Of a DNA stretch of 64,000 bases, positions 18,903 to 22,993 are shown piece after piece. The translations under genes and the position numbers were made by a program. Below the pieces are notes generated by a model, which was not told where the DNA came from, made no database searches, and saw only the letters and a program-made list of their open reading frames with translations. The first letter of the stretch is position 1, and the number at the start of each line of letters is the position of its first letter. The DNA is from Minisyncoccota bacterium (GTDB lineage Bacteria; Patescibacteriota; Minisyncoccia; RBG-13-40-8-A): assembly GCA_035528175.1 (NCBI GenBank), contig DATKZC010000025.1:431-64430 (forward strand), in the 5' to 3' direction.

Positions 18903-19199
18903 TCACTTTCCGGAAAGCCAGGTAAAAACCCCGGTCAGGGTTTGTTTGGAAAATATAAGGCACAGAATCTCAAATCCTCGATCCAAATTTCGATATATAA
19001 CAATAAAAAAGCCAACGAGCAGCGCCATGCCTAAAACAAAGACTGTCGGAGCAATGATCACGGTCATGATAAACTCAAAAATCATGGTGAGCATAGCTTC
19101 GTTGGATGCCACATGCCAGACTCCCAAGAACATGGCGAAGAGAATCGCCACGACTAAGGGAATCCTCCAAAGCATCCTGTTTCTCTGAATCAATTCCAT
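18903..19199 (-). CDS. Small (98 aa) hydrophobic membrane protein, 2-3 TM helices
   Basis: Near-consensus SD (AAAGGAGGA, 7 nt upstream), an upstream TTGACA box, its own terminator, and a sequence that is almost entirely TM helices. Confidence 0.5.
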   Translation of the reverse strand: MELIQRNRMLWRIPLVVAILFAMFLGVWHVASNEAMLTMIFEFIMTVIIAPTVFVLGMALLVGFFIVIYRNLDRGFEILCLIFSKQTLTGVFTWLSGK

Positions 19200-19296
19200 T
19201 GTTTCCTCCTTTGTTTTTTTATTGTAATTTAAAACTGATAATAATCAGTTTTATGACTATTATCAGCTTAGCACATACAATTATTTTTGTCAATGG
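19200..19296 (-). promoter_or_regulatory. Promoter, perfect palindrome and SD for the small membrane-protein gene
   Basis: On the minus strand: TTGACA (plus coordinates 19288-19293), about 18-nt spacer, TAAGCT. The perfect 9-bp/4-nt-loop palindrome AAAACTGAT-AATA-ATCAGTTTT (19231-19252) is followed by a third TGATAATAG half-site (19255-19267), then the AAAGGAGGA SD. Confidence 0.5.
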
Positions 19297-19689
19297 TTAT
19301 TCTTTTTCCTCCTCTACTACTTTGTCCTCTCGATTAGAAGCAAAAATATATGCTTCATGAACCAAGGAACCATTAATCTGTGTATCCTCTGATATTTTGG
19401 TTTCGGATTTAAAGTCTAATAACGCTTGTATTATATGATCTTCTTTTCGAAAAATCCCAATTCGTGCTATGGATTTTCTTTCTTCTGAATCAAGATGACC
19501 ATCTAATAATCCTTTCGTAAATTTAAATATTTCTCCTCTATTTGCTTCTGTAGCCCAAGAAGCACATAATATAACCGTCCATTTGTCTGTTAATTCATCT
19601 ATTTTCATAATCGCAAATAAAACAACATCACCTTTTGAGGCTTTAATCTCGGATAATATCTTCTGAAATTTTTCTGTTATATTTCCCAT
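19297..19689 (-). CDS. Unknown 130-aa protein, downstream partner of the HEPN-like gene, ending in an acidic tail
   Basis: 13-bp overlap with the upstream gene. No GS...DxD nucleotidyltransferase motif. C-terminal EDKVVEEEKE. Confidence 0.35.
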   Translation of the reverse strand: MGNITEKFQKILSEIKASKGDVVLFAIMKIDELTDKWTVILCASWATEANRGEIFKFTKGLLDGHLDSEERKSIARIGIFRKEDHIIQALLDFKSETKISEDTQINGSLVHEAYIFASNREDKVVEEEKE

Positions 19690-20117
19690 TGTTTTTTTAT
19701 ACGATTAATTAAATTTTTAAGATTATTATGCACCCTAGCTGTTTTAATCTCATCCCAACCAGGATCTAAAGTATATCTTAATGTAGGCCAATTTCCATGA
19801 AACTCCTGTGTGAATCCTGACCAATCTTCATATAACTCTCCATCGTAGCCCAAAACATCTACCATACCGGATAATATTAATAAGGTTTCAAATTCGTGAG
19901 CTCTAAAAAAGGTAGGTATTTTTTCAGACGAAAAATTTTTTTGAGGACAATCTGGATAATCAGATAAGTGAAGAGTTTTACAAATAACTGCCTTTAGAGC
20001 ACATTCTAATGCATAGCCCATCATATATGCAGCCATGCCCCAATCCTTTGCAGATATAAGTGTATTAATTGTCGTTAATCGAGCATCTGTAATATTGCGA
20101 AGATCTTGTGATGTCAT
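19677..20117 (-). CDS. HEPN-like domain protein
   Basis: AKDWGMAAYMMGYALECALKAVI resembles the first HEPN helix (A..EkalKA). Later FRAHEFETLLIL (H.L..L) and NWPTLRYTLDP (R-Y-x-x-P C-terminal HEPN signature). By-eye assignment only. Confidence 0.45.
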   Translation of the reverse strand: MTSQDLRNITDARLTTINTLISAKDWGMAAYMMGYALECALKAVICKTLHLSDYPDCPQKNFSSEKIPTFFRAHEFETLLILSGMVDVLGYDGELYEDWSGFTQEFHGNWPTLRYTLDPGWDEIKTARVHNNLKNLINRIKKQWEI

Positions 20118-20160
20118 TTACTATTATACTATGAATAAATAATAAAGAAAATTGAACCTT

Positions 20161-21702
20161 CTACTTTTTTTTGTCTTCCCCTACTGCTTTTTTGATTGCT
20201 TCACGAATGCCAACAAGGTCAATTTCCGGCTTTTGTTTTTTAATCGGCTGAGATTGAGTATTTGGTTTTTTCTCTCTTTCTTTTTGTAAACAGGACGAAC
20301 AATAAACCGGCCTTACTCCATCTGGTTTAAAAGCAACTTTGGTTTTTTTGCCGCAATCAGAACAAACTGCCTCAAATTTTTTCGCTTCTTCTTCTGTTTC
20401 TGCCACTTCACTCCATCTAGCAATTTTTTCTTCCACTGCTTTTCGCGATATGGTATATCTTTCGCGGGAGAGTTTAATAATTTTATCCTCAAAAGATTTT
20501 TTAGGAACCGTAGATGGAGCCATGGTCTGAGCGCTGAAAGCCCGAGAAGCAACACCATCAATCATTAGTTTTAAATAAATAGTATACTTTGTTAAATTGA
20601 CTAAATCATCGGCAATAAATACTGGCAGAAATTCCCTTTCCAAAAACTCGGCATCATCTGCGCCAACACGGAAAGTAATCAGAGTTCCGACATTGCCGAA
20701 AATCGCATCTCTTACTTTAGTATTTTTGCCTTTATCGCCCATAGAATCTAATTGAGCAACATATTGATGGGCTAAAGTCAGACAGAGATGATATTTTCTG
20801 GCCTCAGAAAGAATGCTCGCAAATGCGTCTGTGGCAAAAGTTTGGAATTCATCAACATAAAGATAAAAATCTTTTCTTTCGTGTTCAAGCACATCCACCC
20901 TACTCATAGCCGCAAGTTGTAATTTGGTTATTACCAAAGCTCCCAACAACTGACTGGCGTCCTCACCAACTCTACCTTTTGAAAGATTGACAATTAAAAT
21001 CTTCCCTTGGTCCATTATCTCCCGCATATCAATTGACGACTTAACTTGTCCGATAATATTCCTGATTAAGGGAGTAGAAATAAATTGCCCGACCTTATTT
21101 TGAATCGGCGCTACTGCTTCTTCCCTGAATCGGTCAGGATATTTGGCAAATTCATTTGTCCAAAACGCTTTTACGCTGGGATCAGTAACCTTTTCCAGAA
21201 CTTTTTGGCGATAATCCTTGTCAGCTAAAAGACGATTAACACCCAAAAGAGTTGAGCCGGGATATTCCAGTAATGATAAAATCGCATTTCTTAAAATATA
21301 TTCCATCCTTGCGCTCCAAACATCAGGCCAGATTTTCTTAAATACGCCCATTAAACCAGAAACAACCAAATGACGGTATTCTGGCTCAACATTCTCCATA
21401 ATATTAAAAGTAATAGGATATTCCAAATCAGCAGGATTGAAATAAATTATATCATTCACCCTGTTAGACGGAACAAAATCAAGCATTGTTTCCGCAAAAT
21501 CTCCATGCGGATCAACAATTGCTACGCCATGCCCATTTTGGATATCTTGAATTGCCATATTTTTCAGAAGTTCTGATTTCCCTGTACCGGTTTTACCAAC
21601 GACATAGACATGCTGGCGCCTGTCTTTTGTTTTTATGCCAAATTTTGTCCGTTTGTTGCGGAAATTTGTTTCGCCTAAAATTGTTATTTCGTTTTCAATC
21701 AT
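20161..21702 (-). CDS. TraD/TraG/VirD4-like P-loop ATPase with a C-terminal zinc ribbon, stand-alone
   Basis: YVVGKTGTGKSE Walker A, VDPHGDF, YLYVDEFQTF Walker B, TLAHQY...FGNVGTLITFRVGADDAEFL. The C-terminal CSDCGKKTKVAFKPDGVRPVYCSSC is a CxxC-x17-CxxC ribbon. Confidence 0.6.
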   Translation of the reverse strand: MIENEITILGETNFRNKRTKFGIKTKDRRQHVYVVGKTGTGKSELLKNMAIQDIQNGHGVAIVDPHGDFAETMLDFVPSNRVNDIIYFNPADLEYPITFNIMENVEPEYRHLVVSGLMGVFKKIWPDVWSARMEYILRNAILSLLEYPGSTLLGVNRLLADKDYRQKVLEKVTDPSVKAFWTNEFAKYPDRFREEAVAPIQNKVGQFISTPLIRNIIGQVKSSIDMREIMDQGKILIVNLSKGRVGEDASQLLGALVITKLQLAAMSRVDVLEHERKDFYLYVDEFQTFATDAFASILSEARKYHLCLTLAHQYVAQLDSMGDKGKNTKVRDAIFGNVGTLITFRVGADDAEFLEREFLPVFIADDLVNLTKYTIYLKLMIDGVASRAFSAQTMAPSTVPKKSFEDKIIKLSRERYTISRKAVEEKIARWSEVAETEEEAKKFEAVCSDCGKKTKVAFKPDGVRPVYCSSCLQKEREKKPNTQSQPIKKQKPEIDLVGIREAIKKAVGEDKKK

Positions 21703-21703
21703 A

Positions 21704-22993
21704 TTATTGGACTATAGGAAGCTCGCTGGGCGGTCCGCCTTTCTTGGCTTCAATCTTAGATAATCTTTCAGCTTCAACAAACTTCCCAGGAAGATGGAAA
21801 ATTGTTGCCAGTTCCTCAATATTAAAAACAAATCCCCTAGTTTTGAGCTTATGAAACGGAAAAAATCTTTTCTTGAAAATACCCACAAAAAATCTTCTCT
21901 GTCCCGGCTCTCTTTTTCTTTTAAAGATTTTCCCCCTTCCAGGAGTGGATTTTTTATTGATTTTAAAACCATTTAGATTTTGGGTATTAAATTGTCTGAA
22001 AAATCCAGCTACTACTGTTGGCTTGTCCTTGGAAAAAAGATCTTTAGGCGCCCAATACATAAATCTTATCATTGTTTTAAATCCTATTTTTCCAATATTC
22101 CTTTCAATTGCCAAAACAACTTCTTTCTGACCTGGGGTTAAAAACGGCATAACTTTTTCGACTTTCTTTTCCCCGCCAACAGCACCCTCCTCGCCCCCCA
22201 AGCCAAAAAATCTTGCAATACCCTGACCCAACGCTTCAAGCCAGCTTCTAGCTTCTTCCACTATCATTAATCCTTTCTTGCTTTCTTTTACTTCTTTGCC
22301 AATTATATTTCCAACCAAATTTTCCCCATCTTTTATCCATTGTTTATCGGTAACTGGACTGATTGGGCTGATTAAGATATGAATGGCAATGCTTTCTTTC
22401 GGATTCAAGCTGCTTAAAAATTCAAAAAGTCCGGCAATGGGGTCAGTTCTTTCTTCTGCTTCTTTTTCCTCAAAAAACACCGGATAAGTCCTAATAGGAT
22501 AAGCATCCTGCTTGGTTAAAATCAATTCTGTGCCCCAGGCATCAAAATCCGCGGTCGGAGTGCCGGGCGGAATACTGTTTATATAATCCTCCGCATCTAT
22601 TATTTCTGCTTGTGGGTATTGGGCGTAAAGATGTGATTCAACAAGATTTCTGTATTTTGCTTCGGTTCTGATATAAAAATGGATCTCCCCGCCATGCCCA
22701 AGCATTTCAATGCTAAACCATGGAGGAAGGTCGCCTTTTATATATTTCTCTTTAAATTTTCTCCCCTTTTCAGCAGCGTGCAAGCCAGCAAAAAACTGCT
22801 CCATGGCTTTCGGCGTTTTAATTAGATCTCTAGGAAATTTTACTTCCAAAATAATCCATTCCAAACCTCGTATATATTTAACAATAAGATAATTCACCCA
22901 GAGATGCTTTAAGAATAAAAAAAGAGCTATTGGTGCGATAATCCACCAATAACTCACAAATATATCCCTATAAATATTAAGGATTTCAGTCAT
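21704..22993 (-). CDS. Membrane-anchored partner protein of the TraD/VirD4-like ATPase
   Basis: N-terminal TM pair, then a soluble domain with the same outline as the N-terminal 380 aa of the fused 817-aa protein (EVKFPRD / LIKIPRET, HFYIRTEAKY / SFYLAAPKKY). A 1-bp gap separates it from the ATPase gene. Confidence 0.5.
   Translation of the reverse strand: MTEILNIYRDIFVSYWWIIAPIALFLFLKHLWVNYLIVKYIRGLEWIILEVKFPRDLIKTPKAMEQFFAGLHAAEKGRKFKEKYIKGDLPPWFSIEMLGHGGEIHFYIRTEAKYRNLVESHLYAQYPQAEIIDAEDYINSIPPGTPTADFDAWGTELILTKQDAYPIRTYPVFFEEKEAEERTDPIAGLFEFLSSLNPKESIAIHILISPISPVTDKQWIKDGENLVGNIIGKEVKESKKGLMIVEEARSWLEALGQGIARFFGLGGEEGAVGGEKKVEKVMPFLTPGQKEVVLAIERNIGKIGFKTMIRFMYWAPKDLFSKDKPTVVAGFFRQFNTQNLNGFKINKKSTPGRGKIFKRKREPGQRRFFVGIFKKRFFPFHKLKTRGFVFNIEELATIFHLPGKFVEAERLSKIEAKKGGPPSELPIVQ

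What the first reader, a model, noticed from the sequence alone, without database searches (positions are those of the whole stretch)
19297..20117. Overlapping two-gene cassette: HEPN-like protein followed by an unknown acidic-tailed partner
The 146-aa protein shows HEPN-like features: an A..EcalKA first helix, H.L..L, and a C-terminal R-Y-x-x-P. It is followed, with a 13-bp coding overlap, by a 130-aa protein that has no MNT (GS...DxD) motif and ends in EDKVVEEEKE. HEPN domains usually act as RNases in toxin-antitoxin and abortive-infection pairs. The usual partner is an MNT nucleotidyltransferase encoded upstream, so this gene order and partner are atypical. The pair may be a new HEPN toxin-antitoxin or defence variant.
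Basis: partly seen in the sequence, partly recalled or inferred. Interest (0 to 1): 0.6.

Follow-up and report, generated by a model that had tools for sequence, protein, structure and literature searches.

The report
HEPN gene pair with unknown partner
Two small overlapping genes in a Candidatus Paceibacterota genome form a self-contained, mobile cassette: a divergent HEPN protein that is a predicted RNA-cutting toxin, followed by a protein from a large family no database describes, and the pair most likely acts as a toxin-antitoxin or phage-defence module.

Summary
Two minus-strand ORFs, A (19677-20117, 146 aa) and B (19297-19689, 130 aa), overlap by 13 nt.

B belongs to a sizeable family (799 clusters at 50% identity) with no Pfam, PADLOC, NCBIfam, PHROG or PDB-sequence match. 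It has no MNT motifs. Its fold resembles MNT antitoxins and the MafI2 immunity protein only weakly.

The pair is tightly co-conserved. HEPN is always first, and 35 of 44 distinct junctions are literally ATGGTAG. Flanking genes differ between loci, with serine recombinases and R-M genes recurring.

More distant versions occur in Bacteroidota, on an Acinetobacter plasmid, in a Klebsiella phage and in lambdoid prophages of 190 of 5426 E. coli genomes.

My best reading, at about 50% confidence, is that A is an RNase-type toxin or effector held in check by B through direct binding. No toxicity or RNase activity has been shown. I rate it a new variant of a known kind, of moderate interest.

The parts
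19677..20117 (-). Gene A: 146-aa divergent HEPN domain protein (PF05168 / HEPN-T type). It is the predicted RNase-type toxin or effector. Conserved residues are E38, K42, H74, W99, W110, R114-Y115 and W144.
19297..19689 (-). Gene B: 130-aa acidic alpha/beta protein from an undescribed family. It is the predicted cognate inhibitor or regulator of A. The structured core is residues ~4-118, and the C-terminal acidic tail (122-130) is variable and disordered.
19677..19689 (-). 13-nt coding overlap (ATGGGAAATATAA). B's ATG is embedded in A's terminal Trp codon context. This is a derived form of the family's ATGGTAG junction and implies translational coupling.
   Evidence: Sequence. 35 of 44 distinct homologous junctions are exactly ATGGTAG, a 7-nt overlap.
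20123..20128 (-). TATAAT (-10-like) hexamer ending 5 nt before A's ATG, with no Shine-Dalgarno sequence. This suggests the cassette has its own promoter and a leaderless or near-leaderless mRNA (inferred).
   Evidence: Sequence. TA[TAC]AAT ends 4-9 nt before A's ATG in 15 of 45 distinct loci, against 23 of 285 control genes (Fisher p=1.8e-5). Positional binomial p=4e-12. 0 of 45 A starts have an SD-like tetramer. The generic promoter scan did not call it because no good -35 is present.
19230..19253 (.). AT-rich perfect inverted repeat (10-nt arms, 4-nt loop) in the 97-nt spacer after B's stop codon. It may be the end of the transcription unit. Its role is not established.
   Evidence: the repeat finder I2. 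It does not meet the terminator scan's G+C criteria.

Best explanation
The two genes form an autonomous, horizontally mobile, two-gene conflict module of the toxin-antitoxin / abortive-infection kind.

Gene A encodes a small HEPN-T (PF05168-type) domain. Like other HEPN proteins it probably dimerises and cuts RNA. It would use the alternative catalytic set proposed for HEPN-T proteins (H74 with R114-Y115, helped by E38 and K42) instead of the canonical Rx4-6H motif.

Gene B is translated by coupling from a start codon embedded in A's last codons. It encodes an acidic, non-enzymatic alpha/beta protein that binds A stoichiometrically and blocks it. Neutralisation would therefore be protein-protein (type II-like), not AMPylation as in HepT/MntA.

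Loss or displacement of B, for example on phage infection or loss of the element, would free A to arrest growth.

Shown here: the HEPN fold and conserved residues of A, the absence of NTase motifs in B, strict co-conservation with a fixed order and a fixed overlapping junction, and variable, mobile-element-rich neighbourhoods.

Inferred: RNase activity, toxicity, direct A-B binding, and the trigger.
For: A is a HEPN domain:
- PF05168 hits in 19 of 19 family members.

A carries the HEPN-T pattern that Anantharaman et al. 2013 describe for AF0298-like proteins: R kept, the H of Rx4-6H absent, and a second conserved H N-terminal to it, proposed as an alternative active site (PMC3710099).
- In 64 distinct relatives from four or more phyla, a plasmid and a phage: E38 64/64, K42 64/64, H74 63/64, R114 61/64, Y115 62/64.

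B looks like a binder rather than an enzyme:
- Only W37 and G107 are >=90% conserved in 138 members.
- The family is acidic (median pI 5.4) while the A family is basic (median pI 8.7).

Co-conservation:
- 58 of the 69 loci fetched through A or through B hold both genes, always A then B on one strand.
- 43 of the 51 junctions measured overlap by 7 nt.
- 35 of 44 distinct junctions are literally ATGGTAG.
- Four distant or fused B-family members all sit directly after a PF05168 HEPN gene.

Mobility and context:
- Flanking genes differ between loci. The most recurrent neighbours are large serine recombinases (5), N6/N4 methylases (3) and ResIII (3).
- Related pairs lie next to BrnTA on an Acinetobacter plasmid, in a Klebsiella phage, and between ren and the nin genes of lambdoid prophages in 190 of 5426 E. 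coli genomes.
- All 19 A-family members match PADLOC candidate PDC-M28A.

Decay pattern fits A as the toxin:
- The one CPR-type A without B (L012) is truncated and has lost R-Y.
- The one B without A (L031) is intact, next to a fragment that looks like a transposase by its sequence.
Against: - No experiment exists for this family.
- Yao et al. 2020 state that PF05168-type ('Class II') HEPN modules lack the RNase motif, had no biochemical study, and still need validation as TA systems (PMC7641770).
- The window's own A protein is acidic (pI 5.5), unlike the family median.
- No A-B complex model could be made, so binding is inferred only from the genetics.
- B-family members with large C-terminal extra domains suggest B may do more than inhibit.
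- The decay pattern rests on one case each.
- Close relatives were not found in IMG/VR viral contigs.
- In this window the neighbours are housekeeping genes (secDF, lysS, serS), with no integrase nearby.
Confidence: 0.5

Rival explanations
1. Sensor-effector phage defence rather than classical TA. B, whose C-terminus tolerates added domains, would be the sensor or regulator that activates or releases A only when it meets a phage cue. A would not be constitutively toxic without B.
For: - B-family members carry diverse C-terminal extensions: NPxxNxxI repeats plus a beta-rich domain, other unknown domains, coiled coils and a SEC-C motif. They still keep the upstream HEPN gene.
- The A family pairs with different downstream partners at the same overlapping junction: B, the 134-aa B' and a 460-aa DUF3800 protein.
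- A matches the untested defence candidate PDC-M28A.
- The E. coli relatives sit in a lambdoid prophage accessory-gene region.
Against: - The window's B has only a short disordered acidic tail and no extra domain.
- The tight ATGGTAG coupling and the 1:1 small-protein architecture are typical of inhibitor-type partners.
- There are no defence assay data.
- PADLOC has no model that matches B.
Confidence: 0.2
2. B is a degenerate minimal nucleotidyltransferase, a pseudo-MNT. On this reading the cassette descends from a Class II HEPN/MNT module in which the MNT lost catalysis, moved downstream, and now neutralises by binding alone. This concerns B's origin and is compatible with the best explanation.
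For: - MNT is the usual partner of PF05168 HEPN proteins (PMC7641770).
- The helix-strand-strand-helix-strand order of B's N-terminal half is the order I recall for the NTase core. That comparison is from memory, not a test.
- The only hhalign match places B's 'vvLFAim' on the MNT 'vrvFGSv' strand.
Against: - hhalign of the B family against four solved MNTs gives probability 0.1%, E=0.64.
- The 138-member profile finds no PDB chain at E<=10.
- No PF01909 or other NTase family hit appears in 138 members.
- GS and DxD are absent; A26/I27 and D35-K36-W37 stand in their places.
- Foldseek TM-scores are <=0.44 with no hit at E<=1e-3. Equally good matches go to unrelated alpha/beta sandwiches: RimP, BolA, KH domains, CDF transporter C-terminal domains and ANL C-terminal domains.
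Confidence: 0.25
3. The pair is a non-toxic accessory heterodimer. A would be a catalytically inactive HEPN acting as an RNA- or nucleotide-binding subunit and B its partner, with a regulatory or stress function and no role in conflict.
For: - A lacks the canonical Rx4-6H motif.
- Anantharaman et al. note that some HEPN domains are non-catalytic binders, and the sacsin HEPN domain is the top structural match.
- Class II HEPN toxicity is unvalidated.
- In this window the cassette sits among housekeeping genes.
Against: - A keeps a near-invariant polar set (E, K, H, R-Y) across very distant relatives, which argues for catalysis or a precise ligand site.
- Distribution is patchy, the context varies, and pairs lie next to recombinases and R-M genes or on plasmids, phages and prophages. 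That is not the pattern of a housekeeping function.
Confidence: 0.15
4. The roles are reversed: B is the toxin and the HEPN protein A is the antitoxin. This was the original prediction for MNT-HEPN pairs.
For: - In most type II TA operons the first gene is the antitoxin.
- The historical prediction for HEPN as antitoxin is cited in PMC3710099.
- B has a few conserved charged residues: D31, D35, E70 and R76.
Against: - B has no recognisable catalytic motif and very few invariant residues across the family.
- A has the enzyme-like conservation.
- Screens and biochemistry showed HEPN to be the toxin in HEPN/MNT.
- The intact orphan B and the truncated orphan A fit A as the toxin.
Confidence: 0.07

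Closest known systems
Class II HEPN/MNT modules (PF05168 HEPN + PF01909 MNT; Makarova/Koonin prediction, named Class II by Yao et al. 2020, PMC7641770)
   Same: - A small PF05168-type HEPN lacking RX4HXY but keeping a conserved R-Y.
- A two-gene cassette.
- Predicted TA function that is still experimentally unvalidated.
   Different: - The partner is not an MNT: no GSX10DXD, no PF01909 hit, and no profile similarity.
- The gene order is HEPN first.
- The junction is a fixed ATGGTAG overlap.
- The family is concentrated in Patescibacteria/CPR rather than in archaea and thermophiles.
HepT/MntA (Class I HEPN/MNT, type VII TA; Shewanella SO_3166/SO_3165, Aphanizomenon HEPN-MNT)
   Same: - MNT antitoxins 5yep_A, 7ae2_B and 6m6v_A are weak structural matches to B.
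- A two-gene module.
   Different: - A has no Rx4-6H / RX4HXY motif.
- B has no nucleotidyltransferase motif, so neutralisation by AMPylation is not expected.
- In the tested modules the antitoxin is encoded upstream; here the partner is downstream.
HEPN-T family typified by AF0298 (PDB 2hsb; Anantharaman et al. 2013, PMC3710099)
   Same: - R retained, the H of the motif absent, and a second conserved H (H74) N-terminal to it, proposed as an alternative active site.
- Occasional clustering with R-M genes.
   Different: - Sequence similarity is too low for the window protein to reach the Pfam threshold (14.7 against 22 bits).
- It is associated with the B family instead of MNT.
- It has a conserved C-terminal Trp that carries the partner's start codon.
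PADLOC phage-defence candidate PDC-M28 (Payne et al. 2024 bioRxiv, guilt-by-embedding; untested)
   Same: All 19 A-family members and the plasmid, phage and Planctomycetota relatives match the PDC-M28A model, E 1.8e-9 to 8.6e-3.
   Different: - The matches are weak and partial.
- No B, Bacteroidota B-like or B' protein matches PDC-M28B or any other PADLOC model.
- So it is not the same system, only a related HEPN component.
MafB2-CT / MafI2 toxin-immunity pair (PDB 8hhj; PMC9970974)
   Same: - It is a small acidic alpha/beta protein encoded immediately after an RNase toxin, which it blocks through charge complementarity.
   Different: - There is no sequence relationship (9% identity).
- The Foldseek TM-score is only 0.41-0.50.
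- The toxin there is RNase A-like, not HEPN, and belongs to a secreted polymorphic toxin system.

Membership tests
HEPN superfamily (clan CL0291) | All-alpha up-down helical bundle of the HEPN fold | tested here: met
   [not shown]
HEPN superfamily (catalytic forms) | Rx4-6H motif at the start of the last core helix | tested here: not met
   R114 is followed by Y-T-L-D-P-G-W, with no His at +5 to +7. This holds across the family.
Pfam PF05168 HEPN / HEPN-T (AF0298-like) | Match to the PF05168 model at or above the gathering score | tested here: inconclusive
   The window protein scores E=0.035, 14.7 bits against a cut-off of 22, covering residues 4-47 only. All 19 family members match at E<=1, best 1.3e-6. 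Five homologues and three of four HEPN neighbours of distant B proteins carry precomputed PF05168 hits.
Pfam PF05168 HEPN / HEPN-T (AF0298-like) | R of the motif retained, H absent, and a second strongly conserved His N-terminal to it (alternative active site; PMC3710099) | tested here: met
   H74 63/64, R114 61/64 and Y115 62/64, plus E38 and K42 64/64, in 64 distinct relatives.
HepT/MntA type VII TA (Class I HEPN/MNT) | RX4HXY in the HEPN toxin | tested here: not met
.
HepT/MntA type VII TA and Class II HEPN/MNT | Partner is a minimal nucleotidyltransferase (PF01909) with GSX10DXD | tested here: not met
   - No PF01909 or other NTase hit in 138 B-family members.
- The columns that would hold GS and DxD are A/L and D-K-W.
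- hhalign against four solved MNTs gives probability 0.1%.
- The profile against PDB sequences gives no hits at E<=10.
HepT/MntA type VII TA | Antitoxin (MNT) encoded upstream of the HEPN toxin | tested here: not met
   HEPN is upstream of the partner in every locus that holds both genes. The upstream MNT in tested modules is described.
Pol-beta-type minimal nucleotidyltransferase fold (for B) | Structural equivalence to the MNT core | tested here: inconclusive
   [not shown]
PADLOC PDC-M28 (candidate defence system) | Both component models (A and B) matched by adjacent genes | tested here: not met
   The A model is matched weakly: E=3e-5 for the window protein, and 19 of 19 members. No PADLOC model matches B or its distant counterparts.
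Type II toxin-antitoxin module (generic) | Two small adjacent co-directional genes, co-inherited, with patchy distribution and variable genomic context | tested here: met
   Related pairs occur on a plasmid, a phage and prophages.
Type II toxin-antitoxin module (generic) | One product is toxic and the other neutralises it by direct binding | not testable with these tools
   This needs expression and rescue assays plus complex formation.
Type II toxin-antitoxin module (generic) | Autoregulated promoter with an operator bound by the antitoxin or the complex | not tested
   I saw only a -10-like box abutting the A start codon. B has no recognisable DNA-binding domain.

The most novel reading that the evidence does not exclude
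The B family is a previously unrecognised class of HEPN-cognate proteins: 799 or more clusters at 50% identity and no model in any library searched. Together with this HEPN-T subfamily it would define a new, widespread toxin-antitoxin / antiphage module. Its features would be: HEPN first, an ATGGTAG-coupled and possibly leaderless operon, and neutralisation without AMPylation. It is enriched in Patescibacteria and has remote relatives in lambdoid prophages of E. coli. If confirmed, it would also give the first functional proof that the 'alternative' H/R-Y active site of PF05168-type HEPN domains is catalytic.
Probability: 0.4. Interest if true: 0.65.

Novelty: new variant of a known kind. Interest (0 to 1): 0.5.

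Why it matters
[quoted passage not shown] 2020). Even so, the PF05168-type half of that world has no biochemistry, and its lack of the RNase motif leaves its activity open.
- This cassette is a compact, strongly conserved version of such a HEPN. Its partner cannot AMPylate, so it separates HEPN regulation from nucleotidyl transfer.
- It adds a sizeable unannotated protein family to the list of conflict-system components.
- It is one of few candidate TA or defence modules that appear typical of ultra-small CPR bacteria, whose phage defence is poorly understood.
- Recognisable relatives sit in E. coli prophages, so the hypothesis can be tested directly in a standard host.

Tried and rejected
- **Sequence search of A and B against PDB chains**, as single sequences and as profiles: no useful hits.
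- **B as an MNT by sequence:** rejected. There are no motifs, no Pfam NTase hit in 138 members, and hhalign probability is 0.1%.
- **B as PDC-M28B or any PADLOC component:** no match.
- **Fusion partners of B as a clue to function:** the long B-family proteins have C-terminal domains with no Pfam match, so they gave no functional name.
- **Housekeeping operon:** rejected because neighbours are not conserved.
- **A conserved third gene** (for example the 98-aa membrane protein at 18903-19199, or the upstream TrwB-like ATPase): neither recurs next to the pair in other loci.
- **Phage origin of the CPR family:** pattern scans of IMG/VR with A and B found no relatives. The A3 alignment was too diverse to scan.
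- **Foldseek against AFDB:** the library was unavailable.
- **Promoter and terminator scan:** it found nothing convincing around the cassette. The -10 box abutting the start codon came only from the cross-locus comparison.
- **Literature searches** for PDC-M28, for the E. coli and Acinetobacter protein accessions, and for HEPN in Patescibacteria: no description of this pair. The library is incomplete, so this is not proof that no description exists.

Full report
**1. The observation**

The window is a low-GC (~35%) stretch of a Candidatus Paceibacterota (CPR/Patescibacteria) metagenome-assembled genome. NCBI names both proteins hypothetical: VMW82_02700 and VMW82_02695.

On the minus strand, ORF A (19677-20117, 146 aa) is followed by ORF B (19297-19689, 130 aa). 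They share 13 nt. Both have clear protein-level homologues, so they are genes and not chance ORFs.

- The E-C-A-L-K-A motif is in predicted helix 2.
- The C-terminal motif is R-Y-x-x-x-P.
- B's acidic tail is real but neither conserved nor structured.

**2. Gene A is a divergent HEPN domain of the PF05168 / HEPN-T type**

- The window protein matches PF05168 only below threshold: E=0.035, 14.7 bits against 22, first two helices only.
- All 19 aligned family members hit PF05168, with a best E of 1.3e-6.
- An AlphaFold2 model built on that alignment is confident (pLDDT 85.6).

The canonical Rx4-6H motif is absent. In an alignment of 64 distinct relatives, a polar set is almost invariant: E38 64/64, K42 64/64, H74 63/64, R114 61/64 and Y115 62/64. 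Those relatives come from CPR, Bacteroidota, a Planctomycetota MAG, plasmids of Acinetobacter and Deinococcus, and a Klebsiella phage.

This is the pattern Anantharaman et al. (2013) describe for the AF0298-like HEPN-T family. The R is kept, the motif His is lost, and a second conserved His lies N-terminal to it and could form an alternative active site (PMC3710099).

Yao et al. (2020) call the PF05168 modules 'Class II'. They note the conserved Tyr and the missing RNase motif, and say no biochemistry existed (PMC7641770).

**3. Gene B belongs to a large family that no library describes**

- B has no hit in Pfam, NCBIfam, PHROGs, PADLOC or PDB sequences.
- A profile of nine homologues finds 799 cluster representatives at E<=1e-3 among 1.84 billion, and 184 at <=1e-10.
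- None of 138 members has a relevant Pfam or PADLOC match.
- The 138-member profile still finds no PDB chain at E<=10.
- Conservation is thin. Only W37 and G107 reach 90%, with L24, F25, D/E31, D35, K/R36, W45, E70, R76 and N106 frequent.
- The family is acidic (median pI 5.4) while the A family is basic (median 8.7). The window's own A is an exception at pI 5.5.
- The AF2 model (pLDDT 86.9) is a two-layer alpha/beta domain with a disordered tail.

**4. Is B a hidden MNT?**

For:
- It then lists several minimal nucleotidyltransferases, including three MNT antitoxins (1ylq 7.0, 5yep_A 6.2, 2rff 6.0, 8xeh_E 5.6, 1no5 5.2, 7ae2_B 5.1, 1wot 4.9).
- Foldseek also ranks MNT antitoxins near the top.

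Against:
- The same lists hold RimP, BolA, KH, CDF-transporter and ANL C-terminal domains at similar scores.
- Foldseek gives no hit at E<=1e-3 and TM-scores <=0.44.
- I recovered four real MNT sequences from the PDB search output, aligned them and compared profiles. hhalign probability was 0.1%.
- GS and DxD are not present.

Membership of the MNT family is therefore not supported. A very remote, catalytically dead MNT origin remains possible, and I put it at about 0.25.

**5. The pair is a tightly coupled, mobile cassette**

I fetched 22 loci through A from GTDB species genomes and 47 through B from metagenomes.

- By tblastn, 58 of the 69 loci contain both genes, always A then B on one strand.
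- Of the 51 junctions I could measure, 43 overlap by exactly 7 nt.
- Among 44 distinct junctions, 35 are literally ATGGTAG. A ends ...[K/R]-W-stop and B starts M-V-[E/D].
- The window's 13-nt ATGGGAAATATAA is a derived form of that junction.

The loci without both genes are explained as follows:
- L035 lacks A because the contig ends just upstream of B.
- L012 has a truncated A that has lost R-Y, has no B, and is followed by a gene that looks Mrr-like by its sequence.
- L031 has an intact B preceded by a fragment that looks like a transposase by its sequence.
- L015-L022, from Bacteroidota and other phyla, have A but no B by tblastn. Their partners are covered in section 7.

That decay pattern is what one expects if A is the harmful partner, but it is one case each.

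Four distant or fused B-family members (P0118, P0122, P0159, P0171) each sit directly after a PF05168 HEPN gene with a 4- or 7-nt overlap.

Neighbouring genes are not conserved. Only A and B cluster across 34 loci. Among 128 neighbours from 29 non-redundant loci, the most recurrent families are:
- large serine recombinase (Resolvase 5, Recombinase 4),
- N6/N4 DNA methylase (3),
- ResIII (3),
- LexA/S24 (3),
- otherwise assorted housekeeping genes.

No third gene is conserved.

**6. The cassette seems to carry its own promoter, placed for a leaderless transcript**

- A TA[TAC]AAT hexamer ends 4-9 nt (mode 6) before A's ATG in 15 of 45 distinct loci. One is the window: TATAAT at 20123-20128, then 5 nt, then the ATG.
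- Only 15 such hexamers occupy all other upstream positions (binomial p=4e-12).
- The rate at other genes of the same loci is 23 of 285 (Fisher p=1.8e-5).
- None of the 45 A starts has a Shine-Dalgarno-like tetramer.

This is an inference from sequence. No transcript data exist.

**7. Wider relatives**

- **Bacteroidota.** A homologues (26-40% identity) are followed, with a 22-nt overlap, by 107-134-aa proteins. As a profile these match the B family (hhalign probability 95.6%, E=1.3e-8).
- **Acinetobacter plasmid and Klebsiella phage.** Plasmid pAJ4131 (next to brnTA) and phage Kp4864-1 carry an A homologue plus an overlapping 134-aa B'. The plasmid and phage A homologues score 71 and 56 bits against the CPR A profile, and the E. 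coli one 71 bits.
- **E. coli.** The same pair is present in 190 of 5426 complete genomes. In the one genome I examined it lies in a lambdoid prophage between ren and ybcN/ninE, and it is annotated 'HEPN domain-containing protein | hypothetical protein'.
- **B' against B.** With a 21-member profile the result is suggestive only (probability 50%, E=1.6e-4, in register at W37 and N-G).
- **Deinococcus plasmid.** This A homologue, 66 bits against the CPR A profile, overlaps a 460-aa DUF3800 protein instead.
- **PADLOC.** All A-type proteins tested match PDC-M28A weakly. This is one of 145 untested 'guilt-by-embedding' candidates. No partner matches any PADLOC model.

**8. Mechanism**

The most economical reading has four parts:
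- A is an RNase-type HEPN toxin or effector using the H74/R114-Y115 site.
- B is its co-translated, stoichiometric protein inhibitor.
- Neutralisation is by binding, because B cannot AMPylate.
- The module behaves as a TA or abortive-infection cassette.

I give this about 0.5. The rivals are:
- a sensor-effector defence in which B regulates rather than simply inhibits (0.2);
- a non-toxic binding heterodimer (0.15);
- reversed roles (0.07).

The pseudo-MNT origin of B is compatible with the main reading.

Nothing here demonstrates toxicity, RNase activity or physical interaction. Both structure-prediction jobs went on the monomers, so no complex model was made.

**9. Verdict**

The thing is not categorically new. 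It is a HEPN-based two-gene conflict module, but it differs from the described HEPN/MNT classes in four ways:
- its partner family,
- its gene order,
- its fixed overlapping junction,
- its likely neutralisation mode.

The partner family is large and unannotated. I rate it a new variant of a known kind, interest 0.5.

Noticed in passing
window 20118-20128 (minus strand), and the upstream regions of A in L001-L069: A consensus -10 box (often TGnTATAAT) ends about 6 nt before the HEPN start codon in a third of the loci, and none has a Shine-Dalgarno sequence. This suggests the cassette is transcribed as a leaderless mRNA.
   Followed up: partly
P0118, P0149, P0140, P0131, P0161 (e.g. L073:3001-3903): Some B-family proteins carry a C-terminal extension made of tandem NP(I/V)(F/Y/L)N(H/R/P)xI heptad-like repeats followed by a beta-rich domain. 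Neither part has a Pfam match. These proteins still follow a HEPN gene with the 7-nt overlap.
   Followed up: partly
L077:8001-8797 (E. coli EC21Z-014 chromosome), L072:2495-3300 (Klebsiella phage Kp4864-1), L070:2501-3300 (Acinetobacter plasmid pAJ4131): A related HEPN plus 134-aa pair with a 22-nt overlap occurs in 190 of 5426 complete E. coli genomes. In the genome examined it lies between ren and the nin genes of a lambdoid prophage. It also occurs in a phage and on a plasmid beside brnTA. It is annotated only as HEPN plus hypothetical protein.
   Followed up: partly
L071:2498-4266 (Deinococcus sp. plasmid): A homologue of the same HEPN overlaps by 22 nt a 460-aa DUF3800 protein instead of a B-like protein. 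This suggests the partner can be swapped at a conserved junction.
   Followed up: no
window 20161-22993 (minus strand): Directly upstream of the cassette lies a 513-aa TrwB/DUF87/TraG-type ATPase with a C-terminal treble-clef zinc finger (PF23477, E=8e-15). Before it is a 429-aa membrane protein with no Pfam match. This pair does not recur next to the cassette elsewhere.
   Followed up: partly
L012:4995-5797 and L031:47-1036: Two decayed copies. In L012 a truncated HEPN that has lost R-Y has no B and is followed by a gene that looks Mrr-like by its sequence. In L031 an intact B follows a fragment that looks like a transposase by its sequence, where the HEPN gene should be.
   Followed up: partly
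L006:1019-4522: A 1167-aa UvrB next to one copy of the pair carries a long insertion with intein/homing-endonuclease-like sequence, compared with 676-728-aa UvrB proteins in L041 and L064.
   Followed up: no
window 19230-19269: Two overlapping AT-rich inverted repeats (a perfect 10-nt stem with a 4-nt loop, and a 16-nt imperfect one) lie in the spacer between B's stop codon and the 98-aa membrane-protein gene. Their function is unknown.
   Followed up: no
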